64,000 bases of DNA from Pelagomonas calceolata (lineage: Eukaryota): contig CAKKNE010000002.1 in NCBI GenBank assembly GCA_918797485.1, positions 1,860,001 to 1,924,000 of the forward strand, given 5' to 3'. A program made the position numbers and the translations under genes. The notes beneath the pieces are model-generated. The model saw only the letters and a program-made list of their open reading frames with translations, did not search any database and was not told the DNA's origin. This document shows, piece after piece, positions 16,256-64,000 of this stretch; position 1 is the first letter of the stretch, and the number at the start of each line of letters is the position of its first letter.

Positions 16256-17230
16256 CTAGGGCACGACCGCGGCCTTTTTTTTCGGCTTCTCGACGCGACC
16301 GGCTCGCTCGAGCGACCAGTCCTCCAACATAAAGGCCGGCTTGTACTCCTCATTTGATAGGAGCGCCGGGTTTCGTTTCGTCGATGAGACTGATCCTAGT
16401 GAAGTGTAGCCCTCGTCGTACAAGGAACAATAAGGCAGGTCGAACGTCCTCAAGAAGCTCCAAACATCACCGTAACTCCAGTCCAAAATAGGGTTCACGC
16501 GCATGAACGCCGGCATCCACTCCGACGACGGCTCGAAGGGCTTCTGGTCGCCGCAGTTCGGGTCGCCCTGGCGCGTGCCGAGCACAAACGCTAATGCTCG
16601 GGGCTTCGCGTCGCTCACGAGTTTTTTGAGACCATCGACATAGCCGACGTCCGGCGCCACGGGCTCCACGGCTAACTCATCAGCTAGCGCCTCGCAGGTA
16701 TCTCTCACAAAGGTGCGGACTTCCCCGAAGTCGTCGGACGCGTCGAAGTAAATACATTTCGGTTTTTCTCTATTCGAACTTTTGACGGCGTGGGCGTGTC
16801 TAGCTGCTCGTAATAAGTGCAAGATCACACAGGCGTCTTTCCCTCCGTTGAAGGACGCGTAGACCTGTGTGGAAATCAAATTTACGGCGCGGTCGTTCTC
16901 CACGCCATCGATGCGACGCCTGCTCGATGGCGTGGCGATGTCGGTTCTCACCGCTTCGTCGCCGAGCAATGACTTGTTGAAGAATTATCGGGTGCACCCG
17001 ACACACTGGTTGATTTCCACACAGGCGTAGACGGCATCGGGCCCAAACACCCGCAACGCGTCCTCGAGGATTTTTATCGAGTTGTCGATCTTGTGCCTTA
17101 ATGGCTCGTCGCTGTAGTCGACAAATCTAGCGTGGAGTGCCGCTGCGTCGCCCACATCTTGTGCGCGCAGCCGAGGCGTGGACACCATCGCTCCGGCCAA
17201 ACTGCTCATGATCAAGATCGCTCTAATCAT
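16256..17230 (-). CDS. FLAD1: FAD synthetase (PAPS-reductase family); exons 17230-17033 and 16864-16256
   Basis: Spliced sequence gives DAVYASFNGGKD, GTRQGDP, MRVNPILDWSYGDVWSFL, YCSLYDEGYTSLG and ERAGR. Confidence 0.9.
16865..17032 (-). mobile_element. Introner (TIR/TSD intron-generating element), 168-nt intron
   Basis: Perfect TIRs CTGTGTGGAAATCAA (16865) and TTGATTTCCACACAG (ends 17024). Perfect 8-bp TSD GCGTAGAC at 16857-16864 and 17025-17032. GT donor comes from the TSD and AG from the TIR. Confidence 0.93.
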
Positions 17231-17506
17231 CGCGCCGGCCGCATGGCGCAGTGGTGTGAGCTGTGCCGTGTGCCTTGTCTACGTCTGCGCCACTACTGAG
17301 CCTGGCTGGGCAAGCTGGCCGGCTCATTTTGGTGGCCTAGTGCCTCTCTTTGCCTAGCCGCGCCCGGTACCCGTAGGCCCGGAGCTTTCGGGACCGCCCG
17401 AAACGCGACGGCTCCGTGGCGAAGCATCCATTTTTTTTGCCCACGCGGCTTCAACAGTCTGTCCTCAAGTTTGCAGCCGCAGCCAAATGCGAGAGCGCCA
17501 CGCGCA

Positions 17507-18598
17507 ATGCCGCCCAGACGGAAAAAACGGGCGGCGGCGAGCGGCATTGATGCCAGTACGCGCGGGGGACCGGGAAATTCATCAATATCGACGCCTGCAG
17601 CGCCCGAGCCAACTGCAATTCAAGCTCCCTCAGCAAGCGTGCACGCAACCGCACCGGTGCAGCCCGCAGCCGTAAACGCGACGGCGCCGTCGCCTGTCAG
17701 CGCGCCGGCGCCCGCGGCACCGGCCGCGCCGCCCGCAGCTGTAAATGCACAAGCGCCGCCCGCGGCGCCGGCCGAGCGGCGCATGACCGACCTCGCGGCG
17801 GCCGCCGCCGAAGCGCCGAAGCCGGACCCGCCGAAGCGCAAGCGACCGAAGAAGGAGGGCGGCGCGGCGCGCAAGGGCAAGTGGACCGTCGAGGAGTACG
17901 AGTACACGACGCGCATCATCGAGCTGTTTAACGGTGGGCTGCTGGAACTGCCCGAGGGCGTGACGCTGCGGGCGCATCTGGCGCGGAAGCTGAGCTGCGA
18001 CCCGATGCGCATCACGAAGAAGTTTAGCGGAGCGTCGTGTCTTGGTAATAAAGTTTTCCACAGCGCGGGCGCGCGGCCGCGCGGCGACCGGCCGCGGCCG
18101 TCGCCCCAGCAGCTCGAGGAGGCGGCGCGCGAGTTGCAAGTTCTGGAGGGCCGGTTCCAGGACGCGTGCGTGCGGTCGTCCGAGTCGAAGGACGTGCGCA
18201 TGATCGACCTCGAGGCGCGGTTCCAGAATTCCGATCGGGTCGTGTCGACGCCGGCCATCGACGCCTTCATCATGCAGAGCTGCCAGCCGACGTGGGACCC
18301 CGACCACGTGGCCTCGGCGCCGCCGCCTCTAGCGGAGCCGCGGCCCCTCGCCCCAGCGCCTAGTGCGCCGGCGGCGTCGTTCCCCGTGCCGCAGATCACG
18401 CAGCTCCCCGCGCCCGCTGCGGCCGGACCGGCGCCGGCCTCGCCCCAGACGTCGAACGACCAGATCGCTGCTGGTCTACTGTTGGGCTTCGGCCGGGCCT
18501 GCTCCCAAAATAGTGGTGACAGCTCGGAGCTCGTCGGCTTCGTCGAGGACGTCACCAGCCGCGCGGCCGGGCCGCCGCCGCCGCCGCCTGAATCCTGA
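17507..18598 (+). CDS. Putative transcription factor with stramenopile-type Myb-like RKGKWT...CDPMRITKKF domain
   Basis: RKGKWTVEEYEY...GLLELPEGVTLRAHLARKLSCDPMRITKKFSG, NLS-like PKRKRPKK and Pro/Ala-rich flanks. Confidence 0.75.
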   Translation: MPPRRKKRAAASGIDASTRGGPGNSSISTPAAPEPTAIQAPSASVHATAPVQPAAVNATAPSPVSAPAPAAPAAPPAAVNAQAPPAAPAERRMTDLAAAAAEAPKPDPPKRKRPKKEGGAARKGKWTVEEYEYTTRIIELFNGGLLELPEGVTLRAHLARKLSCDPMRITKKFSGASCLGNKVFHSAGARPRGDRPRPSPQQLEEAARELQVLEGRFQDACVRSSESKDVRMIDLEARFQNSDRVVSTPAIDAFIMQSCQPTWDPDHVASAPPPLAEPRPLAPAPSAPAASFPVPQITQLPAPAAAGPAPASPQTSNDQIAAGLLLGFGRACSQNSGDSSELVGFVEDVTSRAAGPPPPPPES

Positions 18599-18667
18599 TC
18601 TCTCTCCTTTCTTTGCTTTGCTGGAGCTGAAATCTAGTCGTTGTGTAATGTTCGCTTTATCGTGTGC

Positions 18668-19855
18668 CTAGAAATCCCCAAGCAAGCACGGATCCCCCAC
18701 GCCTCCGCGCGTCCACCACCCGAGCGCCTCGAGCTCGCTCCGGCAGTTCGTCGAGTGCCGGTCGCGCACGGCGCCGTGCGCGAGGCCGTCGGGGTACCGC
18801 AGCTGCATAGTCTTCGGCGAGCAACCCCCCTGCGCGCAGGGCTTGAACGCGGGCTCGCCCGTCCGCTTCCGCCGCTTCGCCTCGCGGAAGAGCCAGCGCC
18901 GCCACGGGTGCGCGTAGACGGTCGCACGGGAGTACGCCGCATAGGCAGCAAAGAAGAGGTCGTCGACGAAGAAGCAGCTCGGCAGGCGGCCGCCCGGGAG
19001 TAGCTCGCGGCCCCACCTGCGCGGGAGCGAATCGCGTCGATGGCGTAATAGCGACGAATACAAGACGCCGGCCGCCGACCGCTCGAGCTCGCCGAAAAGT
19101 GACAAAGGCGCCGCGAGCATGTCGCCGGCCTGGGCGACGCAGACGGAGTCCTTGATGGGCCGGCCGCGCGGATAAAAGTAGGAGTAGTAGGTCCACACGG
19201 TCTTTGTGGCGTCGTAGCCTACAGGTTTAGACGACGAGAAGCCGACGTGCAGCAGCGTCGCCAGCGCGAACGGCTCCCACTCGTGGTCGTCATCGGCCGC
19301 CACGACGATCGCCTTTTCACGGTCGTCGCCAGCCTTCGCGAGCAAGGCCGGGTCGCTCCGCAGCGCCTCGACCGCGCCCACGAGCTTCGTCGCCGGGCCG
19401 TAGTCGTGCGCGGGATTCGCGACGACGACGCACGGCGCGCACGGCCCCTTTGTTGATCGCGCCGCGGCGTCAAGCTGCGCGAGCCACGCCGGCGGCTCGA
19501 TGCGCTTGCCGTTCCAGTGACTGCGGCGGTTGTTGTAGACGTCGGGGATGCTCACGACGATCAGCGCCGGCTGCGACTGGTTCAATAGGCTTCGCACGGC
19601 CGGCTCGACAGCGGCCACGCGCGTCGGAGTAGTCGTCAGCGCCACGACCACCGGATTGCGGACGGGCGGCTTCGCGAGCAGCGCGCCGGCGGCCTTGAGC
19701 GCCGGGTCCTCCGGGTACTGCGACCGGTGCACGTGGGCGCCTTTGACTGTTTTGAGGTGCGGTCGGCTGTCCAGGATGGCTTGCATCCAAAGCGGGACGT
19801 CTTTGCTGGCGCACGTGGTGACTAGGAGGGCTGTCAGGGCGAGATTGCGTCGCAT
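18668..19855 (-). CDS. Secretory GT-A fold glycosyltransferase-like protein
   Basis: Signal peptide from ATG 19855. Motifs VVALTTTPTRV, DYGPATKL, ADDD (DxD) and VDDLFF. Confidence 0.7.
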   Translation of the reverse strand: MRRNLALTALLVTTCASKDVPLWMQAILDSRPHLKTVKGAHVHRSQYPEDPALKAAGALLAKPPVRNPVVVALTTTPTRVAAVEPAVRSLLNQSQPALIVVSIPDVYNNRRSHWNGKRIEPPAWLAQLDAAARSTKGPCAPCVVVANPAHDYGPATKLVGAVEALRSDPALLAKAGDDREKAIVVAADDDHEWEPFALATLLHVGFSSSKPVGYDATKTVWTYYSYFYPRGRPIKDSVCVAQAGDMLAAPLSLFGELERSAAGVLYSSLLRHRRDSLPRRWGRELLPGGRLPSCFFVDDLFFAAYAAYSRATVYAHPWRRWLFREAKRRKRTGEPAFKPCAQGGCSPKTMQLRYPDGLAHGAVRDRHSTNCRSELEALGWWTRGGVGDPCLLGDF

Positions 19856-20159
19856 TTTTAAGGTGCGAAGCTGTGCAAATGGACCAGAGGTACAGGCGGA
19901 CTGCGGAGCAAGCGGTTTGGTCGCGTGTATGCGGTGGTGCTTGTTTTGCAGCGGCGTGCCAGCGCCCGACAGGATTTTCACCATCGAAACTGAGGTTGAG
20001 TCGGGGGCAAGTGGCGGATGGGTGAATCAAAACATAACATGCGCCCAGAGGAAATACGCGCCCCAGAGGACAGGATGGAGGGGGAATAACCAGCGAGCGT
20101 GCCGAGCGACGCGGGTCGGAACAGCCAAAAGAGAAAGGGCAGCCTCGTATGAAAAGGGT

Positions 20160-20175
20160 GGTTTTTGTAAAAACC
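20160..20175 (-). terminator. Histone mRNA 3' stem-loop (H2B)
   Basis: On the minus strand, ACCC-GGTTTT-TACA-AAAACC-ACCC forms a 6-bp stem with a 4-nt loop, identical to the copy after H2A. Confidence 0.8.
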
Positions 20176-20282
20176 GGGTAGAATTGGGGTGTCCAGGCGG
20201 CCGTGAAACACGTGAATGTTTCAACAAGGCGCTTTTCGCTCGCGAAGGAGCCGCGCCGTTGACCGCGGACGGTGCGAGCTGT

Positions 20283-20633
20283 TTAGCTCGACGAGAACTT
20301 GGTGACGGCCTTGGTGCCCTCGGACACGGCGTGCTTGGAGAGCTCGCCCGGGAGCATGAGGCGGACGGACGTCTGGATCTCGCGGGACGAGAGCGTCGCC
20401 TTCTTGGAGAAGCGGCACAGCTTGGAGGCCTCGAGGGCGATGCGCTCGAAGATGTCGTTGATGAACGAGTTCATGATCGACATGCCCTTCTTGGAGATGC
20501 CCGTGTCGGGGTGCACCTGCTTGAGCACGCGGTAGATGTACGTCGAGTACGATTCCGTGCGCGACTTCTTCTTCTTGGCGCCGCCGGCCTTCTTGGGGGC
20601 TTTCGCCGACTTCTTGGAGGGGGTCTTGGCCAT
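20283..20633 (-). CDS. H2B: Histone H2B
   Basis: [38 protein letters not shown]...[16 protein letters not shown] at 20633. Confidence 0.98.
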
Positions 20634-20650
20634 GTTGCTGGTGGTTGTGT

Positions 20651-20888
20651 GTTTGCTTTTCTTCCGATGTGTTGGTGTGGAGGGCAGCCCGCTGGAGCGC
20701 ACACATTTCCGGGGCGCGGGCGAGCCGCTAACTTTTGGCGACGAATGAAATTGTGACCCTAGTATCTTTTTCCCCTCTAGGGTCGCAAAATGATTCGTCG
20801 CCAAAAATTAGCGGCGCGCTGACGCCCCGGAAATGTGTGCGCTCCAGCGGGCTGCCCTCCACTCCAACACATCGGAAAAAAAACAAAC
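20651..20888. promoter_or_regulatory. Palindromic bidirectional H2B/H2A promoter (inverted repeat, ~112-bp arms, 14-nt spacer)
   Basis: 20651-20762 is the near reverse complement of 20777-20888, e.g. GGAGGGCAGCCCGCTGGAGCGCACACATTTCCGGGGCG / CGCCCCGGAAATGTGTGCGCTCCAGCGGGCTGCCCTCC. Confidence 0.85.
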
Positions 20889-20897
20889 TCTTACATC

Positions 20898-21287
20898 ATG
20901 TCTGGCAAAGGAAAAGGTGGCCGCGGCAAGGGCAAGGCCAAGTCCTCCGGCTCGTCGTCCTCGGCGTCCAAGGCTGGCCTCCAGTTCCCGGTGGCGCGCC
21001 TCAACCGCTACCTCCGCAAGGGCAAGTACGCCTCGCGCGTCGGCGTCGGTGCCGGTGTCTACATGGGCGCCGTCCTCGAGTACCTCTGCGCCGAGATCCT
21101 CGAGCTCGCGGGCAACGCCGCGCGCGACAACAAGAAGACGCGCATCGTGCCGCGCCACATCCAGCTCGCCGTCCGCAACGACGAGGAGCTCAACAAGCTC
21201 CTGGGCTCGGTCACGATCGCGTCCGGCGGTGTTCTCCCGAACATCCACGCCACGCTTCTCCCCAAGAAGTCGGCGTCCAAGAAGTAA
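20898..21287 (+). CDS. H2A: Histone H2A
   Basis: [53 protein letters not shown] and GGVLPNIH. Confidence 0.98.
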
Positions 21288-21343
21288 GCGCCTCGCTTGC
21301 TGACTTCGGCCGCTCCCACGAGCGCGCCAACATCATCTTACCC

Positions 21344-21359
21344 GGTTTTTACAAAAACC
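21344..21359 (+). terminator. Histone mRNA 3' stem-loop (H2A)
   Basis: ACCC-GGTTTT-TACA-AAAACC-ACCC, 57 nt after the stop codon. Confidence 0.8.
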
Positions 21360-21694: not shown

Positions 21695-23019
21695 ATGGGG
21701 CTGCCACCATGCCGCGCGCTGCTCTACCTCACGACCGCGGCGACGGCGCAGAACCTGATCCACTACGCGGCGCCGGGCGGGAGCACCGGAATCACGAGGG
21801 AGAGCGGCCGCGCGCGCGTCAACATCGCCGTGTCGCCGCACCACGTCAGGCCCACCTTCCGCAAGCCCTTCTACCAGAAGCCGAAGACGGACCCGGCCTC
21901 GCTCAAGAAGGCTTGTAAAGCGTCCATCAAGGAGGCCTGGCGGCCCAAGACCCAGAAGGTCGGATATACCTACCACAAGAACGCCTGCTCTCGCGACGCG
22001 CGCGCGTCGCAACGGCGCACGTGGCAGCCCGCGAGATGTCCCCACGTCACGCCATCAACGGCTAAAAAGTGCCTCGCGAAGAAGAATATTACCAGAATCG
22101 TTTTGATCGGCGACTCGCTGACGATGCAGCTCTGGGGCTCGCTGCTGTGCCGCGAGGAGACGAAGTGGGGCTTCGGTGCGAAAGTTGATGGCCAGATACA
22201 ACATGAAAATGTGAACTACGACCAGCGGAGCCAGCGGGGGTTTTCGGTTGCCGATGCCACGGTGGGAGACGGTCTGACGTGGACCTATTTACGAGTAAGG
22301 GGCATGCAAAGAGCCGGGGCGTTGACGCGAGCTTTAGAAGTGGCGTTCGACCGGGGGATGTTGGATCAGAGGGCACTGTACGTCGTGAACGCGGGTTTGT
22401 GGCACCTGCTCTGCACCACCAATATAAATGAGTGCCTGGAGACGTACGAGAACGACGTAGACAAGTTCCTGAAGGTGCTCACCGCGCGCGCCGACGGCCC
22501 GGTCGTCTGGCGCTACACGACGGCCGTGCATCCGGCCCTGTTCCCGCGGCGCATGAGTCCCGTGGATCAGCGGAAGTTCCGGAGTTTCACGGACGAGAAC
22601 GTGCGCAGCTGTGTAGAAATCAACCAGTGAGTTATGTTATCGCCATCGAGCCGACGCGATCGCGGCGACAACGTCGCGTCGATGGCCTGAACTCCACGCC
22701 ATCGAGCAGACGCAGTTACGGAGACGACATCGCGTCGATGGCGTGGGGCGCCCGAAATTTGATTTTCACACAGGTGCGGCGCCTCAACAAGGTCGCAGAC
22801 ACCGTCATCAGGCGCGACTTCCGCGACAAAGTAACCGTCCGTCGCGACGCGTACAACTTCACGGTGAATCTCGAGGACGAGGCCTATCTTAGAGGAGACG
22901 CGCGGCACCCTGCGTCGGGAGCGCTCAAGTCCCTCGTCTCGTTGCTATTCGTCGAGGACGCGTGCGACTACGGGCGCCTCGCGCGCGGCCTCGTGGGTCG
23001 ATGGTGGCAGGACTGGTAG
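21695..23019 (+). CDS. Secreted SGNH/PC-esterase (TBL-like) family protein; exons 21695-22600 and 22774-23019
   Basis: Signal peptide, WQPARC, IVLIGDS and VNAGLWH. The DARHP (DxxH) motif lies in the exon after the Introner. The splice junction reads EN|VRRLN. Confidence 0.8.
22601..22773 (+). mobile_element. Introner, 173-nt intron
   Basis: TIRs CTGTGTAGAAATCAA (22609) and TTGATTTTCACACAG (ends 22773). Degenerate TSD GTGCGCAG/GTGCGGCG. Internal CGCGTCGATGGCGTGG motif. Confidence 0.9.
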
Positions 23020-28845: not shown

Positions 28846-30409
<1,564 letters not shown>

Positions 30410-32956: not shown

Positions 32957-33933
32957 CTACGTCGCCTTGTCGATGGCCGCCCAGACCTCGTCGAGGCCCT
33001 GGTTCGCGTCGACGCGCGCGACGCATGAAGAGTAGTGCTCGAGGATGGGCACGGTCTGGGCGTGGTAGCCCGCCAGCCGCGTCTTGAGCGCCTCTTCGGT
33101 GTCGTCGGCGCGCTGCATCAATGCTTCCCCCGTCTCGTCGTCCAACATCGTTTCTACGGACGGCGCGGCGCCGCCGAGGGATTTGGGCGGCGCGAATTTG
33201 GCGTGGTAGCTCCGCCCCGAAGCCTTGTGCACCCAGCGGCCGCAGATGCGCTCCGTGAGCACCGCGTCGGGCACTTCCAACGCGACGACGGCGTTCACGC
33301 ATTCTCCTTTTTCCGCGAGGCACCTGCGCGGCGATGGGGTCTCGGTGGAGTCCGGGCACCGGCCCGAGGCGTCGCATCGATGGCGTCGAGGGCGCGAGCG
33401 GTCGCCCTCGCCCCGACGCTCCGATGCCCCGACCGCCGGCGGCTCGAGGGCGCCCCGACGCCGCCGCCGCGACGTCCGGGCGGTGACTCTCACACCCGTA
33501 GCAGGTAAGCTGGACGCCGCGCAACAAACGCGTCCAGCATCTTGGCCTGGTCCACCGTGCGCGGGAAGCCGTCCAATATAAACCCCTTGGAGCAGTCGCT
33601 CTCCTCGATCCTATCTCTGATGATACCGACCACAATATCGTCTCCGACGAGCCCGCCGGCCTCCATGACGGCCTTCGCCTTCTGGCCCACCTCGCTGCCC
33701 GCGGCGACGGCCGCCCTTAACATGTCGCCCGTCGAGAGCTGGGGCGCGCCGAGCTTGTCCACGAGCTTCGGCGCGTGCGTCCCTTTGCCGCTGCCGGGCG
33801 GGCCGAAGAGGATGACGACCTGGCGCGCGTCGCCGCCGCCCGCACTTATCCGCGTCGGCGGCCGCAGGCCCTGGGGTGGCCGGCTGAAGGCCGTGATCGT
33901 CGTGGCAAGCAATGCAATGCTGGGGAGCTGCAT
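32957..33933 (-). CDS. ADK: Adenylate kinase, plastid-targeted; exons 33933-33530 and 33323-32957
   Basis: [38 protein letters not shown] and QRADD. Signal peptide ends TA-F. Confidence 0.93.
33324..33529 (-). other. 206-nt GT-AG intron in ADK, possibly a divergent Introner
   Basis: Removal restores MLDA|CLAEKG. Short imperfect inverted ends (TTGCGCGGCG / CGCCGCGCAG) and an internal ATCGATGGCGT motif. Confidence 0.8.
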
Positions 33934-43914: not shown

Positions 43915-46900
43915 CTAAGGCGACTCGAAGTGCCGGCGGCGACGGCCTGACCCTGAGCCTGACCCTGAGCCTGATCCCGTGGCGCTGCGCGGCCGCCGCG
44001 GCCGGCCGTCGTCCCCCGCCTCACGGCGCTGGCGCCGTCGACGTCTGCGTCGTTCAGCGGGAGTCTCGTCGGCGAAGCCTTCGCCCTGGATCGGCGATTG
44101 GGCGTTTCCAAAGTACGCACCAAACAATCCGGCCGTGGCATCAGTCTCGAGGGGCGCGACGTCTCGTCGTCGGCGCCCGCTACGGCCTGTGAGCCTTCTC
44201 TTTTGCACCATGGTAGCATAGCCCAGTTGCACTGCTCTACAATCTTGAAACACTCCGTCCGGGAAGTGAGGTATGTCTGGTTTATCAAGTTCGGCGTGGG
44301 GATAGTCGGGTGAAATTTCGACGCCACAGCAATAGCAGAAGTCCGTGCGTTCGCGTGTACAAGGCATCACGTCCGTTGATTTGTGAGTCATATGATTGCA
44401 CGACTCGGGGTCATCCTTTTCTATCACTTTAAAACCTGTGTGGAATCAAAATTCGCGACGCGCTCGACTCCACGCCATCGCGACAGCTGCTCGACGGCGT
44501 GGAGGTGCCAGTTCCTCACCGCTCGACGGAGCCAGCACAGCCGTGAACCCGACGTACTGGTTGATTTCCACACAGCTTGAAACAACCGGGACAGCGCTGC
44601 GCGCCATGCTGTTCTCTCCACTCCTCCACCTCGACGTCGGCCCGCTCGCTACACTTGATATTCGGGTGCCACCTGCGTAGAATTCAACCGGTGAGTCAGG
44701 TTGCGTCGATGACGCAATGAAAATTGATTTCCGCCCAGGATCCACGGGCACTTGCAGCGGACGCACCATCTATAGGCGCAGTACGGGCACTGCACCATGG
44801 GGTCGCCGTCTCTAGGTAAGTTCACGAAGCTGCCGCACTTCAAACAATGTATACCTTCACCGAGCACGGATCTATCATAAAAATCGACGAACTTGCGGTA
44901 CTCCTTCCGCCCGAGCACGCGCCGCGCATGCAAATCAGATATATTTGTGGTGCAGCCGGCGTGATGCATCGGACAGCGAAGGGGAAACCTGTGTGGAAAT
45001 CAAATTTGGGCGCCCCGCTATCGACGCGACACATCCCGATGACATCCCGACGACTCCGTCTACTCGATGGCGTGGAACTGTTACGCCATAGACGCCACGT
45101 CGCCCATGTAATCGCGTCTGCTCGATGGCGTCGAGGTTCACGAAGTTCTCCCGCAATAACTCTCCGGATAAGCTAACTCAATGGGTGATTTCCACACAGG
45201 TAGAGACATCGAGATATCACCTAACGCAGCGTGGCAGTAGCTACGCATACAGCCGACGCAGACGTCGTGGTTGCACGACTGGAGATGTATAACAGCATTG
45301 TCCTCGGCGTAACAAATGCAACAGCTCCCCTTTTTCGTGAAGAGGCGGTTCTGGACCTCGTGGAAGAGCCGCCCGTAGTGCCTTGCGTGGTCCAGTTTGG
45401 GTGCAACGGCCGCGGCCTCGACCGCCCTTGGGGCCCACTGTTTTCTGCCGCGCGCGACGGCGATGCGCTGCCGCTTCCTCCTATCTTCCGCCGAGCCCCG
45501 GAAGACAATACCCCCGGAAACGCCCATGACCAGCGCGAGGAAGCCCCCAACCGCCAGCACGACGATGACCACCGTGGGCATCCTGTACTGTTTTTCTTTC
45601 ACAGGCTGGGACCCGTACAAGGGGTCGTCCCAGCAGAGCTCCCAGTACGGCCTACTTTCACGCGCGGGTCCCGCCGTCAAGCGCACATTTACAGTTGTGT
45701 TCTGGAGGTTCGTCCCGACGTTCACGTAGAGCCTCGTTAATACCCTGCCGCAGAAGATGCGTAAAGGTCGTAAAGTGCGTGTACAACACTCCGCGCCCGA
45801 GATTTTATCTCGACAGTCCTCGCACAGGAACACGAGCTGGCCCGCGGGCGTGTCGCCGCCGTAGACGGCGAAACTAATGCCCTGGCGCAGTTGGAGCGGC
45901 GCGTCGAAGGACACGTCCACATAAGTCACGGCTTCGGTCGCGGAGGCCGCCCAGCCGCAGTCGGGGTACGCCAATGTCGCGTTGCCCTGCCCCAGCGCCC
46001 AGGCCTTTGTCGTAGAAGACGTCGTGTACGTGAGCTCGTCGCTCGCGGAAGGGAGCGCGTACCGATGGCGTTCGAGCACGGCGGGCGCGTTGACCGTGCC
46101 GCAGTGGCGCTGGATATCCGTTTCCAGTGAAGCGCGGGGCGGTATCGCGGCGTGTCCGTCCACAAAGTCCACCTGCCGCTGCTGGACCACTTCCAACCGG
46201 TCGTCCATTCGCACCGAGAGAGACGTCTCCGGGGCGAGCTCGGCCCGCCACGCGGCCGTCAAACCTGTGTGGAAATCAACCAGTGAGTTAGGTCGTGAAC
46301 CTCTACACCAAGGAGCAGACGCAGTTACGGGGACAACGTCGCGTCGATGGCGTGGGGCGTGCGAAATTTGATTTCCACACATTGTCAAACGAGGCAGCGC
46401 CTTGCCCGCCGCAAGCCCGGGCCCCGCGATGTGCGCGTCCTCGGGCCCGTCTTCAGAAGCGGCGGCGAAGCCCTCGTCGGTCCCCGGCGTCTGGAGCAGG
46501 ACCTTGTCCGTTTCCGTGTTCGGCGCAGAGGCCACGAAGTAGTGCGCCAGGAAGCCCGTGCCCCAATCCAGGTCGTCGGAACCCTCTAACGTGGAATAGG
46601 CCACGCGGATCGCGCATCGGTCGGCATACGCCAATGACCCACAGGCCACGGATAAAGGTGGCGGCGGCGCGTCGCAGCCGCCTGCCCTACAGGAGAAGAG
46701 CACGGCGCCCGTGTCCGCTTGCGTCACGTTGAAGGACCCCGCATCACCTAAATCCAAGCGCGGGAACGCGACGACGACGCGCGTCGTCGCCGTGACCGGC
46801 GGCGCCAAGATCCACTCGCAGTCTTGCGAGGGCCGCGCGGCCGCGTCCGGCGCGGAGCCGTCGCTAAACAGGAACGACGACGCTCTTAACACAGAACGCT

Positions 46901-49397
46901 GCTGCGACGATGATGAGGCCCACCACTGTTGATCATCACCGGTCAGGGGCGCGAGGGGCACGAGGTGCGCGCCGCAGCCCTGCTGCGGCCGGTCCGAGAA
47001 GTAGGCCACGTCGAAGCCGCGGCCCGCTATTTCCGTAAAGGTCTGCAACCTCAAAATCATCTCGGGCCCGCTCGAGGCCAGCCACTTCGTGGAAGTACTA
47101 CCGCAGAACGTGTCCAGGATGGCGTCGTTGGACACGCTGCCGTCGTAGATTGTTAAAGATCCCTGGGCGCAGTCCGGTATGTCAATCGCGTTCGCCACGA
47201 GCAAGACGTTGGAACCGCCCCCTACGTCGACGTGCCAGTTGAGATCCAAACCCGACGCCAGCGTGTCCCCGACGTAGGGCGCGCGCACGGATGGTGCGGA
47301 GGCGGCGGCGAGCCGCATCTCGCCGTCGCCGACGCCTCTGCCTTCTGTGAAGGAGGCGTAGTAGCGTGCCTCGAACCCGAGGCCGTCGGGCTCCGCCTCC
47401 GTTTCCAACGTGACGTACAATGCATGTGATGAAGCGTGTAAGATGGGCGGGATCTCCTCGCAGCCCGCGCAGTCCCAGAGTAAGGTTGAGGTTGCATTTG
47501 CACCTCCATAGATCCGGAGCCGCCCGCCGCCCAGGTCGACGCGGTAGAACGCCAGGCTGATAGCTGAGACAATGGGTTCCGGTCGTACGAGCCACTCGCA
47601 CTGCAGCGAGGCGGCCATGGCGTCGGCCGGCGCCGAGCCGTCGCCGAAGACGAAGGAGGCCGCCGTGAGCACGCCGGGCTCGCGCACGTGGCCGCAGCGG
47701 TACTTTGGCGCGTCACTGTAGTACGCGAAGTCGACGGCGCCGCCCTCGGAAGTCGACTGGGAGAGTAATCGTAAAGTAATGCCATCAGAAGCAGGTGGCG
47801 CCGTGAAGGCGTCCGCGACCAACCAGGCCTGCAGGTCGGACGAGCAGTCCCACGTCTTGAGGAGTGGGGGCGACCCCGCCTCCTGATAAGCGAGGGCCCA
47901 CGTCGCCTCGTCGTCGCTCACCGCCCCGCCGTACGCCTCGACGACGTCGCCGCAATCGAGGGATAACGCGTTCCAGGCGATCGCCAAAAAGTCTATAGAA
48001 CCGCCAAACACTTTTGGATGTACGACCCACCTATAATCGAGACTCCCCTTCCAGTTATGCGGCGCTCGGATCGACGTCGCCGCGCCACCGACGAGCTCTA
48101 CTTTTTTAGAACCAGCACCGGCGTCCCAGTCCGTAGTTTCCGTCCAGTAGATGGCCTGCCAGCCCGTCCACTCGCTGGCCTCCTCGGTCACGGGGTCCGT
48201 GTAGTACGCGGAGCCGCTCCCGGACACGTATTCGACGTACAACGCGTCGCCCGACGCTTCTAAGGGAGGCGGCGCCGTGAACTGGCAGCCGGCGCAGGAC
48301 CAGAGGAGAGGAGCGTTTTCACCGTTCCCGTCGTAGACTTTCACACTACCTTCGTATTTTACGGACACGCGTTCGGCCACGAAGATTAAGGACGGCGTCC
48401 AGTCGCTGCGCGAGGGTGGCGGCCACGTTAGTGATTGTATTGAATGATCCAACAATGAAGGCGCGACCAGCCACTCGCACGCGTCGGGGCCGAGCATATT
48501 TCCTGTGGCGGAGGAACCATCTGTTAACAAGGCTGATGGTGCCGTAGCCAACGAAACCTCATCCAACGCCCCGTGCTCTCCACAACTACAATAACTCCCG
48601 ACGTGGCACGCGTCGGCGCCGGCCGCGACGTACCGCGCCCGAAATATGAAATCGGGTTCGTCCTCGGCACTGCCCGAAGCGCTACCCGGTGCTGAAAGTT
48701 GCACCATGACGTTGCCCCTTCGACCATAGACCCACTGCTCTGGAAAATCGGCGTGGGTCCACCGTGCCAGCAGGCCCTCGCCGTCGCTTACCGTGACGGT
48801 GTCGCCCTCGCGTAACGTGGCGGCCTCCACATAGACCGCCACGTCGCACTCCGTGCAATCTTTAGGATTGATCTTCCAATCATACAACAAGGGTCGGGGC
48901 GCTTTGCCGCTGGCCGTCTGCGGGGCTATCATGAGGCCTTGCGCCATCTTGAGCTCGACTTCGTAGGTCTCGCCGTCCGCCCGCTCGCCCATGTCGTCCG
49001 TGTGGGCCAGATACCTGATCTTGAAGCCGGAAGCGCCGCCTCTCGGGGCGCTAAAGGTGATAAGAGCAGCGGTCTTCGTTGTTAAGTAAAACGGCGGCGG
49101 CAGCACTTCCCCACAAGAAACACACCGCCACAGCTGCGCCTCGCTCACGCGCTCCTCGCCCTCGTACATGAAAATCTCGCAGCCGTCACATTGCAGTTCT
49201 TCGAAGACGAGCACGAGCGTCTGCATCGAACTGGAACTGCTCGGCTTGATGGCGTAGGTGCACTTGTCGCCCGGGTCGAGTCCTCCCTCGATATACGTCG
49301 CGAGGTTGAGGCGGCCCGTCAGTGCTGTGACCGTGGCGTCGTGGCAAATGGCCCAGGCGCCGGTGGCGAGCCAGAGGAGGGCCCAGAGGCGACGCAT
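43915..49397 (-). CDS. Signal peptide, ~7-8 CUB-like domains, TM and RBR (RING1-IBR-RING2) E3 ubiquitin ligase, ~1638 aa; exons 49397-46391, 46264-45208, 44988-44746, 44672-44584, 44435-43915
   Basis: Exons sum to 4917 nt (in frame). Repeated CxWxI...F..xDL...YDG...GF..xY CUB pattern. TM is VVIVVLAVGGFLALVMGVSGGIVF. RING1 is CCICY..CNHDVCVGC..RCPMHHAGC, IBR is CLKC..CPYCAYRWCVRCKCPWH...C and RING2 is RCPGC..IEK..SCNHM..FCYCCG. Confidence 0.87.
44436..44583 (-). mobile_element. Introner, 148-nt intron
   Basis: TIRs at 44436 and ending 44575. TSD TTTAAAAC/CTTGAAAC. Removal restores RCPG|CFKVIEK. Confidence 0.9.
44673..44745 (-). mobile_element. Degenerate, internally deleted Introner, 73-nt intron
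   Basis: Decayed TIRs CTGCGTAGAATTCAA / TTGATTTCCGCCCAG. Removal restores CKCP|WHPNIKC. Confidence 0.8.
44989..45207 (-). mobile_element. Introner, 219-nt intron
   Basis: TIRs at 44989 and ending 45199. Degenerate TSD GGGGAAAC/GTAGAGAC. Removal restores DISM|FPLRCP. Confidence 0.9.
46265..46390 (-). mobile_element. Introner, 126-nt in-frame stop-free intron
   Basis: TIRs at 46265 and ending 46382. TSD CGTCAAAC/TGTCAAAC. The ORF track reads through it. Confidence 0.88.
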
Positions 49398-58463: not shown

Positions 58464-58687
58464 CCACGGCGGGCCGAGCTGCTGCTGAAACTGTTTGTGC
58501 GAGTGCTGTGACCGTACTTGTTAAAACGCGTCCTTGCAGCCCACCACCGCGCTACGGCAAGGCAACAGCAGCTAGTACTATATAGCCCTCCTCGCCACCT
58601 AGCACGCGCGCTGCCGCGGCGGAGCGGCGAGCGCGCAAAACAGACAGCCGCGGCGGAACGGCGGCGACGCGCAAAAAAAAAAAAAAG

Positions 58688-60037
58688 ATGGCCGCCTCCG
58701 TCGCCTCGGTCCTCGGCTTCGCCGAGGAGCCCGTGGCGGAAAGGAACCCCATCGCCGCGGCGTTCGGCTTCCCGGGCGCCTACTGGTGGGAGGCCGACTA
58801 TAACTTACAACAGCCGCACCGCTACGCGTCGTTTGACGCCGGGTCTGTCTCAGGAACGCCGGAGCGACGGCCCGACGCGCGGCGTTATAGCTCAACAGCA
58901 CCTGCCTGGTTTTCTGGCACTACTCCTCCCAAAAAAACTTTCACCGTGAAGCCGAAAACGCCTCCACTCACACACCTCGACTTTAGACCAAGGCGCCCTC
59001 TAGGCAAAGGCAAGTTCGGCGAGGTGTACCTGACGACGCACCAACCGTCTGGAAGATTATACGCCTTGAAAGTCTTACACAAGCGCTTATTGTACAACTC
59101 GAAGCTACGAGAACGGGCGAGGAACGAGAGACGCATCAACGGCGCGCTGGGGCCGCATCCCTTCATCATCCGGATGCAATACGCGTTCGCCACAGAACGA
59201 TGTCTTTGTTTAGTGTTGGATCTGGCGCCGTGCGGCGAGCTCTTCCAGTTAGTAAAAGTGGCCCACCCCTGGAAGAACGGCAAGACCAAGCCGGGCAAGT
59301 TCCCGGAACAGGCGGCTCGCTTCTACGTCGCCGAATGTTTATTAGCGCTCGAGTTTTTACATGAGCGACGTGTCTTATACCGTGATCTGAAGCCGGAGAA
59401 CGTCCTCATACAGCGCGACGGCCACGTCTGCATTTCTGATTTCGGTCTATCAAAACCAGGAGTGAACCATCCCCTGCGCGGCGCGCGGTCCATGTGCGGC
59501 ACGCCCGAGTACCTCGCGCCGGAGATTCTGAGAGGGTCCCACGAGCACGGGTTGGCTGTCGACTTCTGGTGTTTGGGGGCTTTATTCTACGAGTTACTCG
59601 ATGGCTATCCGCCTTGGTTCACCAAAGATAAGAAAAAGTTACTTGAAAGGGTCGCGCGGCGCGACTTGGAGCTGAAACTACCGCGAGGTCTGAAGCCGAA
59701 ATTATCAAAAGATGGGGAGCTGTGCTTAAGGGCATTGTTGCATCGGGACGCGACCGTCCGACTGGGAAGCGATGGCGACGCCCAGGCCGTCAAGGACCAC
59801 CCGTGCTTCGGCATGGTCGATTTTCAGGGTCTCGCGATGAGGCACGTCGACCCGCCCTTCCTGCCGACGCGTTTCGTGGCCGATTTGCGGAGTGACGAAG
59901 AAGTTTTATGGAGTGACGTCAAGGTCGATGCGGATCGGAAATTGCAGAGGATGGATATTAGTGATGACCGCTTCGACGAGATCTTCGCGAAGTTCGAGTA
60001 TCGGGGGGAGCGCGACGTGCTCCTCGAGGAGGCCTAA
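58688..60037 (+). CDS. AGC-family Ser/Thr protein kinase
   Basis: LGKGKFGEV, YALK, YRDLKPEN, DFG, CGTPEYLAPE and PPFLP. Confidence 0.93.
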   Translation: MAASVASVLGFAEEPVAERNPIAAAFGFPGAYWWEADYNLQQPHRYASFDAGSVSGTPERRPDARRYSSTAPAWFSGTTPPKKTFTVKPKTPPLTHLDFRPRRPLGKGKFGEVYLTTHQPSGRLYALKVLHKRLLYNSKLRERARNERRINGALGPHPFIIRMQYAFATERCLCLVLDLAPCGELFQLVKVAHPWKNGKTKPGKFPEQAARFYVAECLLALEFLHERRVLYRDLKPENVLIQRDGHVCISDFGLSKPGVNHPLRGARSMCGTPEYLAPEILRGSHEHGLAVDFWCLGALFYELLDGYPPWFTKDKKKLLERVARRDLELKLPRGLKPKLSKDGELCLRALLHRDATVRLGSDGDAQAVKDHPCFGMVDFQGLAMRHVDPPFLPTRFVADLRSDEEVLWSDVKVDADRKLQRMDISDDRFDEIFAKFEYRGERDVLLEEA

Positions 60038-61335
60038 TAAGTTCCAAACATATTACCGGACGCGTCGCAGGCTACCAATAGGCCTAGTGCGCGTCCGACA
60101 TATGCAAGGGCGATCCTTGAAAAGGGGTCGAGGGCTTTCCAGATTTCGTCGACGCGGCACGGCTCTTGCGAAACGGCGCCGAGCAACTGCGGCAGCACGG
60201 CCTGCAACTCTTCCCGCGCTTGTAATCCGCCGCGGTCGTCGCGCTCGACGTCGTCGCGGTCTTCGCCCGACCGTCTTCGTCTCACATAAACACCCCGGTC
60301 CGTGACACCCATGCCGTCGCGACCGGCCAGCGGCGCGTCCTGCGCGGCGCGGTGCGGCGCGAGGCGCTCCTTCCACGCGCCTATCACATCATTCGGCTCG
60401 ACGCCGACCACGCCGGCCAGCTTGTCGAGCTCCGCGACAGCCCGCTGCCAAGCTTTGGAACCATGCCCGTCGCACACGAGGGGCGGTGCCGCGCACCTTC
60501 TCCAGTACGTGTACTTCTCGAGGCGCGCGGCGATTTTCGCCGGCGTGCGGCCGAGCCAGCACTCCTCGGCCGCCGACGCGCACAGCTTCGCCCAGGTCCA
60601 GTCGTACGTCGCGACGGCGACGGTGGCGTGCAGCGACGGCTCCGCGCCGCAGGTCGCCGCGTGCACGAAGCCGCGGGGAACGTACAAGACGTCGCCCCGA
60701 TTTAATGTAGTTTCGACGGCCCGCGGCGCTTGAGATTCAAAGTCCGCGGGCAGCGCAAAGGCCTTGCCGGCTTGTTCGTCGTTGTTCGGGAACGAAACTG
60801 GCGGCACGGCGTACACAACCCAGGACTTCCGCCCTTCGAGCTGGACGACAAAAACATCTCGATCGTCGGCGTGCGCGTCGACGGCCTGGGCATGTGGTGG
60901 CGTGGCGTACAATTGAACATAGGCATGAGGCAGGTGCGTTCTCAGTGAAACCGAGAGCCGCCGGCACGCCTCGTCCACGCAATCCGCGCGGTTCACTATT
61001 AACGAGCATCCATCCAACCACGCGTGCGCCGCCGACGCGTAGTCGCGCGACGCGGCGCCGTCCCTCATGACGATGCCTTGGGCGGGTGGCGTTTAGGCTG
61101 CCGCAAAAATCGCGGACAGGTCGCGCCAGCGCGGCAGCGACGCTAGTATTGATGCGTCGCAGCTGCGTCTGTACAGTTCCGGCCGCTGCTCCCAGGACTC
61201 GCGGAAGAAGTACTTGGCGCTGCGGGGGCCGAGTAGCGCCTCGATGCCCAATCGTCGGCGGTTTTTCCGTTCTCTTGCGGCGGCGCGGCGCGCGCTGCGG
61301 CACCACTTTCGAGTTCTACGGCCAGCGATGGCCAT
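60034..61335 (-). CDS. JmjC/cupin-4 (ROX, NO66/MINA-like) 2-oxoglutarate oxygenase, with an in-frame TAA at 61095-61093
   Basis: FFRESWEQRP in the N-terminal part; HADDRDVFVVQLEGRKSW and GDVLYVPRGFVH in the rest. Both parts are in the same frame. Confidence 0.75.
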
Positions 61336-61554
61336 CGCTTGCTTTGGGGCTGTGCAGCCGCAAAAGCCAGCAATGCAGCCGCAAAAGCTTGCGCAGCGCA
61401 GCGCAGTATGTGCAGTGTGCTCACGTTGCTGTTCGCCGGCCCGAAAAGCAGCAGCACGCTGTCGCAGCGTAATGAGGTTTATAAATTAAAAGGTTTGATA
61501 GCCGAATAATGCAAAAGACAGCCAGCGCTGCACCAATTCAGCTGTAGCGCCGGC

Positions 61555-61579
61555 TTGCTAGTATCTTACTGCCGCTAGC
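61555..61579 (+). promoter_or_regulatory. Recurrent upstream motif copy
   Basis: TTGCTAGTATCTTACTGCCGCTAGC between the divergent JmjC and Rab genes. Confidence 0.65.
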
Positions 61580-61732
61580 ACACCGTACCGGCCATCGCTT
61601 TCCTTGCCGCCTGTACGGCGGTTACGACTCATACGACTGGCCCGCATTTCTTAGATTAACCCGGTGCGCTGCCCGCTGCTCCTGAACTGGTAATTTTGGC
61701 GCCTCGGGGGCCGCCACAAGCACCGAGGCACT

Positions 61733-62383
61733 ATGACAGCCATTTTCAACTCCGCGGCGGCCCCGAAGAGCTACGAGTTCAAGGTCGTGCTGTTAGGCGA
61801 CCGCGGCGTCGGCAAGACCTGTCTGGTACTACGATTCATCGAGGGCCTGTACAACGCGCGGCAGCAGTCGACGATCGGGGCGTTTTTCCTCACCAAAAAA
61901 ATAAAAACCGCAAGAGGCGACGACTGCAAGATCCAGATCTGGGACACGGCGGGCCAGGAGCGGTTTCGGGCCATGGCGCCCATGTACTACCGCAACGCGG
62001 CGGCGGCCGTGGTCTGCTTCGACGGGACGGACCAACGGACGTTCCAGACGATGCGGACCTGGGTCGAGGAGCTGCGCGCGAACGTCGACGATAAGAAGCT
62101 TGTCATTGCGATCGCGATCACGAAGAGTGATTTGGACGAGAATCGGGCCGAGACGCGACGAAAAGCCGAGGAGTTCGCTTCCAGCATAAACGACGCGTTG
62201 GTGCTGGAGACGTCGGCGAAGAACGATGTTGGGGTCAGAGAGCTCTTCGCGACCGTCGCGGAGCGCGTGATCGAGTTGCGGGGCGAGGAGCTCCTCGCGG
62301 CGTCCGACCGACAAAGGGGCCTGTCCCTGAAAACCGAGCGGGCGCCGGCGCGGGAGCCCGAGCCGTCCAATAGTTGCTGTTAA
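61733..62383 (+). CDS. Rab GTPase (Rab5/Rab22-related)
   Basis: GDRGVGKT, STIGAFF, WDTAGQERF, TKSD, ETSAK and C-terminal CC. Confidence 0.93.
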   Translation: MTAIFNSAAAPKSYEFKVVLLGDRGVGKTCLVLRFIEGLYNARQQSTIGAFFLTKKIKTARGDDCKIQIWDTAGQERFRAMAPMYYRNAAAAVVCFDGTDQRTFQTMRTWVEELRANVDDKKLVIAIAITKSDLDENRAETRRKAEEFASSINDALVLETSAKNDVGVRELFATVAERVIELRGEELLAASDRQRGLSLKTERAPAREPEPSNSCC

Positions 62384-62426
62384 AAATTATACACAAGTTA
62401 GTATGACTACCAGTGGCTCCCATCGT

Positions 62427-64000
62427 TCACGTCCGCGCCGCCGTCGCGGGGTATGTTAAAGACTCGTCGGTCTCCGAGAAGTTGCGCCGCGCCCAGGGCG
62501 CTTCCGAATTCTCGCGTTCGAAATCGCCAAGCTGGCTATCCAACACCTCCGAGAAGGAGCGGCTCGCCGCCGCGCTCGGCGGCTCACGCGGTAAAGGCCG
62601 CGCCACAGCGATCGAACGCACGCGACCCACGGCAGGAGACGCCAGCGGCGACGCCGCCGCCGTCAGCTTCCGGATGTACCTCCTTTCATGCTCCAGCGTC
62701 TCGAACCGATACGCCACCCGGATATCGGGCACGTTCGTCATGCGAATGTCGTTGCCGCCGGCCTCATCATAGCCCTCTCCCAGAAAATGGCGCTTGAACC
62801 TATCTTCCACGCCACTTTGTAGTACGGAATTCCTAGCGATCTCGCAGATGTCCGTCGACGACAGCTTCCAGACCTGGGCCGCTACCGAGTATTCTTCTAC
62901 CAGTGGGTCTTTGGTAAAATGTAACATGAGAGGATCATCGGTAGATAATGAGACATCTAAACCGCGCTTGAAGTACTTCGGGAAGGGGCTCTTCGAGAAG
63001 TCTAAGAATAACCTATTGTTGGATAACGGCGACATCGCGATGCCCATGCGCGCCAAGTAGTACAAGTACTGCAGCGGCGGACTCCTTCGCAGCTGGATGC
63101 CGTGGTTGATCTTCTTCGTGAGTAGAAAGGCCGCGGTTAGATGATCCACATCACCCGCTTCACCACCTGTGCGCAAACCAACCGATGAGTCGGGTGCACC
63201 CGAAAATTCTTCACGAAGTCCTTTCTCGGCGACAACGCGACCATGATGACTGAATCGAGTGGTGTAGGACCCACACCGCCGCGCCGTCGAGCTGGCGTCG
63301 CGTCGATGGCGTGGAGGCCATGATTGAGCCGTGGCGGAGACGCGCCGCGAGAATTTGATTTATGCACAGCTCACCGCAATGAGGTCGGAACTCGAACGTC
63401 GACAGGCCCCGCGACCGTCGTAACGCATTCAAACTTCGAATATTGGCATAGAGGTGGTACATCCAGTAGGCATAGCTCGGCTCGTCGGGCTGATTCCACT
63501 CTGACGGTGTAGCTATAGGGTACCTCGAATCAAGCTTGCGGTCGGGTTTACTCTCGTCATCGACACTATCAAAACCGACGAGAGCCTCCAAAAACGCGTG
63601 CAACTTCGGATGCGAGGCCGGGTCGAGCGAAGCCTCGAACAAGGGCCGGAAGACGTTATCCAAGACTTCCCCGAACGACTCCACCAGACCAGATTTGCGG
63701 TATATTGAATACAATCGGGGAATCTGTACGAGCCACCGGACGTTCGGCGACGACAATTCGTTGTCGACAATCCAAGCCGCTAATTTACTCCATTCATCCA
63801 ATTTCCGGCCATAGACACTGACCCGCCACTCCGCGATCTGGTACTTCGACTGCTCTAAATCGGCAATCACCTCTTTGGTGATTTCCGCGAGGTACCGGCC
63901 CTTCACGTGGTTATCGGTCTTCAGGAAGATTTCCCTCAGTCTCGATTGCCCAGCTGGATTGTACTTGAGGTTGAATCGGTCGAAGCGGTGGAACGTGTCG
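62427..64000 (-). CDS. AMPD: AMP deaminase (5'-partial); exons >64000-63378 and 63166-62427
   Basis: [45 protein letters not shown] and CEIARNSV. Confidence 0.95.
63167..63377 (-). mobile_element. Introner, 211-nt intron with GC donor
   Basis: Decayed TIRs CTGTGCGCAAACCAA / TTGATTTATGCACAG. TSD TTCACCAC/CTCACCGC. Internal CGCGTCGATGGCGTGG motif. Confidence 0.87.

What the first reader, a model, noticed from the sequence alone, without database searches (positions are those of the whole stretch)
16857..63377. Seven Introner copies forming an age series, with scarless splice geometry
Seen: copies at 16865, 22601, 44436, 44673, 44989, 46265 and 63167 share a 15-bp TIR (CTGTGTGGAAATCAA), an internal (C)TCGATGGCGTGG motif and ~8-bp TSDs. 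TSD identity runs from 8/8 down to ~5/8. In every case the donor is the first GT/GC of the upstream TSD copy and the acceptor is the TIR-terminal CAG. Splicing therefore removes the element plus one TSD exactly, in either element orientation. Known: this mechanism is described for Aureococcus Introners. The 73-219-nt decay series shows conversion into ordinary introns.
Basis: partly seen in the sequence, partly recalled or inferred. Interest (0 to 1): 0.7.

Follow-up and report, generated by a model that had tools for sequence, protein, structure and literature searches.

The report
Intron-making transposons in Pelagomonas genes
Seven copies of a small jumping-DNA family sit inside four protein-coding genes of the marine alga Pelagomonas calceolata and are likely cut out of the RNA without a scar; this is a known kind of intron-making element, and copy length does not track copy age.

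Summary
The anatomy is real. Seven elements (66-211 bp) have 15-bp inverted ends and 8-bp target duplications (one copy 7 bp), and lie in coding exons of four P. calceolata genes, in both orientations. Removing element plus one duplication restores gap-free proteins at all seven sites; one result equals the annotated protein. Junction reads were not seen; read depth fits splicing of three of four copies laid. Among 120 metagenomic copies the geometry holds on the coding strand (65 of 72). Relatives likely differ in which sites are occupied. The 'age series' by length fails: short copies are internal deletions of two 203-bp masters, and length is unrelated to duplication identity or divergence. 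Introners are already reported in this species, and this scan has noted them in other genomes. Extra details: a hAT-like G-Y-N4-R-C target preference, and donors no stronger than random exonic GT, so the element's ends may set the donor position. No transposase was found.

The parts
16865..17024 (.). E1 element, 160 bp, subfamily B, perfect TIRs; TSD copies 16857-16864 and 17025-17032 (8/8)
16865..17032 (-). Predicted intron E1 (168 nt, GT..CAG, phase 0) in an FAD synthase gene (about 16256-17230, minus)
   Evidence: 96 of 107 spanning homologues gap-free and best score of 4 donors; transcript-derived P0148 continuous at 98.9% identity; Pfam PAPS_reduct
22609..22773 (.). E2 element, 165 bp, subfamily A; TSD copies 22601-22608 and 22774-22781 (6/8)
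22601..22773 (+). Predicted intron E2 (173 nt, GT..CAG, phase 0) in a 383-aa gene of no Pfam family (21695-23019)
   Evidence: spliced translation identical to the annotated P. calceolata protein P0125
44436..44583 (-). Predicted intron E3 (148 nt): element 44436-44575 (140 bp, subfamily B) plus TSD copy 44576-44583; exonic copy 44428-44435 (6/8)
44673..44745 (-). Predicted intron E4 (73 nt): element 44673-44738 (66 bp, subfamily A, eroded TIRs) plus a 7-nt TSD copy; exonic copy 44665-44672
   Evidence: read depth dip in two RNA runs
44989..45207 (-). Predicted intron E5 (219 nt): element 44989-45199 (211 bp, subfamily A) plus TSD copy 45200-45207; exonic copy 44981-44988 (5/8)
   Evidence: no read matching this copy at 45202
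46265..46390 (-). Predicted intron E6 (126 nt, in frame and stop-free): element 46265-46382 (118 bp, subfamily A) plus TSD copy 46383-46390; exonic copy 46257-46264 (7/8)
   Evidence: no interior read matching this copy at three listed sites
43915..49397 (-). Host gene of E3-E6: CUB domains, a hydrophobic stretch, then Cys/His-rich RING-IBR-like domains (likely a membrane RBR-type ubiquitin ligase)
   Evidence: Pfam CUB and weak RING; homologues carry PF00431 and PF01485; spliced ORF of 1653 residues
63167..63377 (-). Predicted intron E7 (211 nt, GC donor): element 63167-63369 (203 bp, B-like with variant TIRs) plus TSD copy 63370-63377; exonic copy 63159-63166 (6/8); splits the H-C-G-E motif of AMP deaminase (62427 to beyond 64000, minus)
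   Evidence: profile positions 457|458 contiguous; solved structures leave exactly one residue for the junction codon; variant ends recur in L053

Best explanation
The seven elements are short transposon-like repeats with 15-bp inverted ends and 8-bp target duplications inside coding exons, likely inserted by a cut-and-paste transposase encoded elsewhere and likely removed from the RNA as scarless spliceosomal introns. Shown: a 203-bp master (two subfamilies with shared ends) sits between two copies of an 8-bp target; both TIRs end in CAG when read outward, so either orientation offers an acceptor; the upstream target copy begins GT or GC on the coding strand. Inferred: the spliceosome cuts at that GT/GC and at the far CAG, removing element+8 nt (211 nt when full length) and leaving one target copy. 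Inferred: only insertions into GT/GC-starting targets survive in coding DNA, helped by a transposase preference for G-Y-N4-R-C. Inferred: after insertion, copies lose 0-150 bp of interior by independent deletions while keeping their ends, so length varies widely among copies of similar age. Least certain: the transposase is hAT-like (about 0.55).
For: TIR pairs far above chance. In 120 unique metagenomic copies flank identity peaks at 8 bp (0.73; 0.21-0.32 for other lengths; 35 perfect), and 35 of 35 perfect ones have the GT/GC..AG geometry. With strand called from flanking codons alone (72 of 104 callable), GT/GC at -8 is on the sense strand in 65 of 72 versus 26 of 72 antisense, AG end in 71 of 72. 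The predicted E3-E6 set scores best of 80 frame-keeping combinations against both homologues and is gap-free at all four junctions against P0002. E2 product equals annotated P0125. E1: transcript-derived P0148 is continuous. E7. Mobility: P0127 (96% identical) runs through the E2 site yet reads into a family TIR 54 residues further on, and P0144/P0146 read into one at a third site; 1619-1620-aa orthologues on contigs of 9-101 kb are continuous at all four E3-E6 sites (7 of 10 cluster members span all four). Deletions of 8 nt or more are mostly unique (113 of 126 in A, 50 of 55 in B). Far end of target AC/GC in 23 of 67 versus 9.5 expected after codon-phase matching.
Against: No exon-exon junction row for E3-E6 was among the 15 of 159 joint rows shown; reads from other copies swamped the table. 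In run X21, 5-6 reads match the E5 interior (45062-45082) against flanks of 11-29, versus 0-1 in X22: some retention or a cryptic acceptor is possible. Two DNA runs carry E3-E6 with no difference, so no empty site was seen as DNA; empty sites are inferred from proteins only. 26 of 117 copies have under 5/8 TSD identity, far more than one Poisson class allows and not rescued by an indel beyond chance, and divergence falls with TSD identity over all copies (rho -0.31, p 0.0006), so some real age spread or chimeric assembly exists. No transposase or long element was found.
Confidence: 0.88

Rival explanations
1. One reading: copies inserted at different times shrink steadily, so 219 to 73 nt records progressive conversion into ordinary introns.
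For: Short copies are internal deletions with mostly unique breakpoints. E4, the shortest, has the worst TSD and weakest TIR pairing (11 of 15). Low-TSD copies are somewhat more diverged. A 206-nt adenylate kinase intron shares a 24-28-nt core and may be an older relative. Decay of introner-like elements in sequence and length is described in fungi (PMC3609843, abstract start in listing).
Against: No length-TSD or length-divergence correlation; 53-54-bp copies with 8/8 TSDs exist; E5, the longest, has 5/8; E7 is full length and the most diverged from master B, and its ends belong to a recurring TIR variant; the 8/8-5/8 spread fits one Poisson class.
Confidence: 0.15
2. Short copies are mobile deletion derivatives that jumped at their present length, so deletions precede insertion.
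For: A few short copies have close relatives at other loci (72 bp L004/L032 at 93%, 78 bp L087/L015 at 92%). E1 has two deletions yet an 8/8 TSD and probable empty sites in 98%-identical relatives.
Against: About 90% of breakpoints are unique; the commonest repeated ones remove one 58-nt internal tandem unit, which can recur independently. Mean TSD mismatch (13%, two copies) is of the size expected if most of the 7.6% divergence arose after insertion.
Confidence: 0.3
3. Some copies are not removed precisely: E6 is retained as a 42-residue insert, or E7 uses the stronger GTGAGC donor 3 nt downstream and adds a glycine.
For: E6 is 126 nt, in frame and stop-free. E7's alternative donor matches the U1 consensus at 5 of 7 positions against 1 of 7 and keeps frame.
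Against: All plus-mate reads at three listed E6 interior sites carry other letters, though flank depth is only 1-8; retention lowers the alignment score (3010 versus 3062). 123 of 150 AMP deaminase homologues have PH-x-GE, none has only PH-x-x-GE, 27 have neither.
Confidence: 0.12

Closest known systems
Putative introner elements of Pelagomonas calceolata (Guerin et al. 2022, PMC9481584; passages, and the text of supplementary file 2)
   Same: Same species; 956 putative IEs with GT and GC donors, AG acceptors and conserved TIRs; intron length peak near 210 bp equals 203+8 here. Very probably the same family.
   Different: The TIR sequence is in Figure S3, a picture I could not read, so identity is not confirmed. 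'TSD' and 'transposase' do not occur in that supplement's text; the two masters, target preference and deletion pattern are not in what I could read.
Aureococcus anophagefferens Introners (Huff et al. 2016; paper not held, known here only through passages in PMC10228655, PMC7789003 and bioRxiv 10.1101/2020.10.14.339549)
   Same: One splice site carried by the element, the other recruited from the TSD, either orientation, TIRs and direct repeats of constant length.
   Different: Sequence homology of the TIRs was not testable. Exons between neighbouring copies here are 89, 243 and 1057 nt, too few to test nucleosome phasing.
Polarella glacialis ILE classes 6, 8 and 10 (bioRxiv 10.1101/2020.10.14.339549; passages)
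   Same: 8-nt TSD starting with the donor, element end as acceptor, both orientations.
   Different: Dinoflagellate; target GHN6 including GA donors; only GT and GC were scored here.
hAT MITEs, Ac group / Hermes (PMC4316626, PMC2803484; passages)
   Same: TIR within 5-27 bp, 8-bp TSD, T2/A7-type target bias (nTnnnnAn for Hermes); here A7 z 2.7 and C8 z 4.0 on the side that splicing does not select.
   Different: No transposase found; position 2/7 tolerates C/G. Other superfamilies also make 8-bp TSDs (recalled, not from a call).

Membership tests
TIR/TSD Introner (Aureococcus type) | Repeated family with terminal inverted repeats | tested here: met
   7 copies in the window, 120 unique copies in 120 metagenomic loci
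TIR/TSD Introner (Aureococcus type) | Target-site duplication of constant length | tested here: met
   identity peaks at 8 bp; 35 of 120 perfect; 29 of 120 under 5/8
TIR/TSD Introner (Aureococcus type) | Acceptor carried in the element, donor at the start of the TSD, on the coding strand | tested here: met
   65 of 72 sense versus 26 of 72 antisense; AG end 71 of 72; 7 of 7 in the window
TIR/TSD Introner (Aureococcus type) | Works in either orientation | tested here: met
   36:28 among 64 unambiguous copies; 4:3 in the window
TIR/TSD Introner (Aureococcus type) | Removal restores the protein without gain or loss | tested here: met
   (homology, one annotation, one transcript-derived protein)
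TIR/TSD Introner (Aureococcus type) | Junction reads at the predicted sites | tested here: inconclusive
TIR/TSD Introner (Aureococcus type) | Presence/absence among relatives | tested here: inconclusive
   protein-level evidence of empty and alternative sites; two DNA runs identical to the window
TIR/TSD Introner (Aureococcus type) | Insertion into nucleosome linkers | not testable with these tools
   no chromatin data
hAT superfamily | 8-bp TSD and short TIR (5-27 bp) | tested here: met
   criteria from PMC4316626
hAT superfamily | T2/A7 target bias (Ac group) | tested here: inconclusive
   A7 20 versus 11.7 expected and C8 31 versus 17.1 in 67 copies; G7 remains common
hAT superfamily | Autonomous partner with hAT transposase and the same TIR | tested here: inconclusive
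   none in 41 of 138 window ORFs scanned, in 120 loci or in viral contigs; no whole genome was held

The most novel reading that the evidence does not exclude
The element's ends, not U1 pairing strength, set the donor: the paired 15-nt TIRs (or a factor bound to them) act as a ruler that makes the spliceosome cut at any GT/GC lying 8 nt before the stem, even when a near-consensus donor lies 3 nt away (E7). With a transposase that prefers G-Y-N4-R-C targets, the family would be pre-adapted to make introns on both strands, and TIR decay would be limited by splicing. Basis: GT donors score 2.38 of 7 versus 2.43 for random exonic GT (p 0.67), and 50 of 65 copies have a better-scoring GT/GC nearby; the E1, E4 and E6 folds pair the TIRs. 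Against: no junction reads, E7's lowest-energy fold lacks the stem, the host U1 was not examined and the score is a crude count.
Probability: 0.3. Interest if true: 0.65.

Novelty: already known. Interest (0 to 1): 0.3.

Why it matters
As it stands it is a clean, ordinary example of transposon-driven intron gain in an abundant ocean alga, already reported at the level of counts. Its use is as a test bed: hundreds of copies put weak, essentially random donors at a fixed distance from one conserved end, which makes the question of how new introns are spliced accurately from day one testable with existing RNA-seq (E7 is a ready case). It also warns against reading intron length or 8-bp TSD identity as a clock.

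Tried and rejected
Whole genome: none held, so no genome-wide TIR or transposase search. Huff et al. 2016 and the Hermes nucleosome paper were not held. Viral contigs: 0 matches to the 19-mer. Long or autonomous elements: 39 unpaired ends were listed; 30 of them and the 2043-bp L042 pairing were re-examined; several resolved to short degenerate partners and none gave a long element with matching TSD. Transposase: none among 41 of 138 window ORFs. Branch-point test: the CTAAC-like motif 27 nt before the acceptor in subfamily A is kept equally in both orientations (9 of 16 versus 13 of 24, p 1.0), and the reverse-strand GTGAGT is not significantly purged (p 0.33), so no selection was shown. Orientation versus length: medians 164 versus 100 bp (p 0.008, n=64), weakening to p 0.045 with 88 copies, absent in the 24 added copies and not seen in the window's seven; post hoc, kept as a lead only. 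TIR mismatch count as an age proxy: rejected, E7's ends are a recurring variant. The first pairing script had a sorting bug and was replaced. The representative-protein search gave no near-identical AMP deaminase, so E7's real donor stays open. Paper searches: introner+Pelagomonas gave 3 records, 2 listed; GTNNNNAC+Hermes gave 0; a search on introner splice-site selection listed nothing specific among 12 of 315. The TIR string was absent from the Gozashti supplement as stored (cut). Supplements I could not see (Figure S3 and Table S3 of Guerin; the cut part of Gozashti's file; all of Huff) may already hold the TIR, the TSD logo or a mobilising element.
Full report
Observation. The 15-mer CTGTGTGGAAATCAA has 14 matches at up to 3 mismatches against a shuffle mean of 0.55. 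They form seven inward-facing pairs, E1-E7, of 160, 165, 140, 66, 211, 118 and 203 bp with ungapped 8-bp flank identities of 8, 6, 6, 3, 5, 7 and 6. A PWM scan and profile searches over nearly all of the window found no eighth full copy. The internal motif is in 6 of 7, not in E4. The two ends differ inside the TIR (AATTT versus ACCAGTGA), which gives each copy an orientation: four lie one way and three the other relative to their transcripts.

Host. A protein 100% identical to the exon before E2 is named Pelagomonas calceolata. The four host genes are an FAD synthase (E1), a 383-aa protein of no Pfam family (E2), a large CUB plus RING/IBR-like protein (E3-E6) and AMP deaminase (E7).

Splice geometry by homology. 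On the coding strand every upstream duplication copy begins GT or GC and every element ends CAG. E1: 96 of 107 homologues spanning the junction (of 120 listed) align without a gap, and the -8 donor scores best of four; a transcript-derived protein at 98.9% identity is continuous there. E2: the spliced product equals the annotated protein letter for letter; 18 of 24 homologues pass the gap test, one of them (P0132) by reading into the element. E3-E6: of 480 donor/acceptor combinations 80 keep a long frame, and the predicted one scores best against both homologues, with no gap at any junction against P0002 and a one-residue gap next to E6 against the distant P0003. E4's intron is element+7, read as a 1-nt deletion in the intronic copy. 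E7: the exons meet at profile positions 457 and 458 and leave exactly one residue against two solved structures.

RNA. Reads were laid on E3-E6 only. The gene is transcribed from the minus strand. The joint table showed 15 of 159 rows, all from other family copies, so no true junction was seen. Indirect signs: the bin that is 73% E4 intron has depth 16 and 10 against 40 and 30 in the next exon bin; at 45202, inside the predicted intronic duplication of E5, no read matches this copy (0 of 2, 0 of 1) while the exon beyond has 11-14; at three E6 interior sites every plus-mate read carries another letter, though flanks are shallow (1-8). Against: 5-6 reads match the E5 interior in X21 (0-1 in X22); possible cryptic acceptors would all break the protein. 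X21 and X22 are one sample.

Family. Flank identity peaks sharply at 8 bp; 35 are perfect and all 35 have the geometry; 108 of 120 have it overall; donors are GT 48 and GC 16 among 64 unambiguous copies, orientation 36:28. A codon model agreed with the geometric strand in 58 of 60. With strand called from flanks only, GT/GC at -8 is on the sense strand in 65 of 72 and antisense in 26 of 72 (104 had flanks, 72 were callable). Full-length copies define two 203-bp masters with shared ends and different interiors (built from 9 and 7 copies); 203+8 matches the reported intron peak near 210 bp in this species (PMC9481584, passages). Run X2 laid 2052 contigs on four copies, so the family is large (not a copy number).

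Mobility. Gene calls that read straight into a TIR show unspliced DNA. P0127 (96% identical) and P0187 are continuous at the E2 site but read into a TIR at residue 415, and P0144/P0146 do so near residue 329. At E1, 8 of 14 listed cluster members are continuous, one on a 14-kb contig, while 6 start at the junction. Orthologues of the E3-E6 gene at 72-73% identity on 9-101-kb contigs are continuous at all four sites (7 of 10 members). I did not see the DNA of these records, so empty sites are inferred. The two DNA runs laid carry E3-E6 unchanged.

Age series. Length does not track TSD identity (rho 0.13, p 0.17, n=120; 0.03 among 91 with 5/8 or better; -0.04 in the seven) or divergence from the master (rho 0.08, p 0.40, n=124 after dropping three pairings over 230 bp). 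Divergence is narrow (median 7.7%, 10-90% range 3.8-12.6%). TSD mismatch counts 35/30/17/9 fit a truncated Poisson of mean 1.08 (p 0.40). Deletions are mostly unique, which points to loss after insertion. Caveats: 26 of 117 copies have under 5/8 and were left out of that fit; divergence falls with TSD identity over all copies (rho -0.31); cheap gap extension may hide substitutions in short copies; the sample favours intact ends. So age differences exist, but the seven cannot be ranked by length or by 8 letters of TSD. E7's ends are a variant seen again in L053.

Mechanistic extras. The end of the target that splicing does not need is biased: AC/GC in 23 of 67 against 9.5 expected after matching donor type and codon phase (p about 1e-6), with A7 z 2.7 and C8 z 4.0. 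This reads as a palindromic G-Y-N4-R-C transposase preference, like nTnnnnAn of Hermes (PMC2803484, passages) and T2/A7 of Ac-group hATs (PMC4316626, passages). GT targets are favoured about 3:1 although GC is commoner in exons (867 versus 1491). Donors are weak: GT donors match the AG/GTRAGT consensus (recalled) no better than random exonic GT, and 50 of 65 have a better candidate within -12 to +30. E7 needs its GC donor (1 of 7) over an in-frame GTGAGC (5 of 7) 3 nt away, since 123 of 150 homologues have PH-x-GE and none only PH-x-x-GE. Predicted folds pair the TIRs in E1 (z -5.8), E6 (z -3.2) and E4 (z -1.6) but not in E7's lowest-energy fold. An end-guided donor choice is therefore plausible and untested.

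Comparison and verdict. The geometry is that described for Aureococcus and for Polarella classes 6, 8 and 10 (second-hand and direct passages; Gozashti et al. section 7; Huff et al. itself was not held). Guerin et al. report 956 putative IEs with TIRs and GT/GC donors in this species; their logo was unreadable here. Gozashti's table lists Pelagomonas MAG families of 80-186 nt with TSD and TIR marked unknown. Verdict: already known kind and very probably the already reported family; scarless geometry well supported by inference; age series not supported; interest 0.3, with a 0.3 chance of a more interesting splice-site rule.

Noticed in passing
window 33324-33529 (minus): A predicted 206-nt intron in an adenylate kinase gene (Pfam register 93-95 contiguous) shares a 24-28-nt core with the family (nhmmer E 0.05; 0 and 2 of 500 shuffles reach the best scores) and has imperfect 10-nt inverted ends but no clear TSD: a possible older or related introner. 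No second copy of its ends in the loci.
   Followed up: partly
window 20651-20888: A 112-nt, 89% inverted repeat fills the gap between a histone gene on the minus strand (Pfam Histone; H2B-like by eye) and a divergent gene starting near 20899 that looks like H2A by eye: a near-palindromic bidirectional promoter.
   Followed up: no
window 44575, loose ends: About 3,500 polyA reads per run continue from an element end into one dominant foreign flank (79-82% agreement): a family copy elsewhere in the genome is abundant in mRNA, by retention in a highly expressed gene or a UTR location.
   Followed up: no
window 45007-45082: 4-6 reads in run X21 match the E5 interior, with almost none at 45181-45202; possible cryptic acceptor or a few unspliced fragments.
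   Followed up: partly
L001-L120: Copies whose AATTT end lies 5' in the transcript are longer (median 164 versus 100 bp, p 0.008; p 0.045 with more copies). Post hoc and not seen in the window's seven.
   Followed up: partly
window 22601-22773 and proteins P0127, P0144, P0146, P0187: One 383-aa gene carries family insertions at three different sites in different relatives.
   Followed up: partly
window E2, E3, E6, E7 target copies: 6 of the 7 differences between intronic and exonic target copies are synonymous in the exon frame; E5's three are not.
   Followed up: partly
L057:701-1000: A 300-bp TIR pairing that contains a further variant TIR and an open-reading-like stretch; possibly nested or chimeric.
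   Followed up: no
window 43915-49397 (minus): The host of E3-E6 joins CUB domains, a likely membrane span and RING/IBR-like domains; only 2 homologues were found.
   Followed up: no
window about 8650-8750: A break between two carbamoyl-phosphate synthase ORFs ending in ACACAG, likely a short intron without a family TIR.
   Followed up: no
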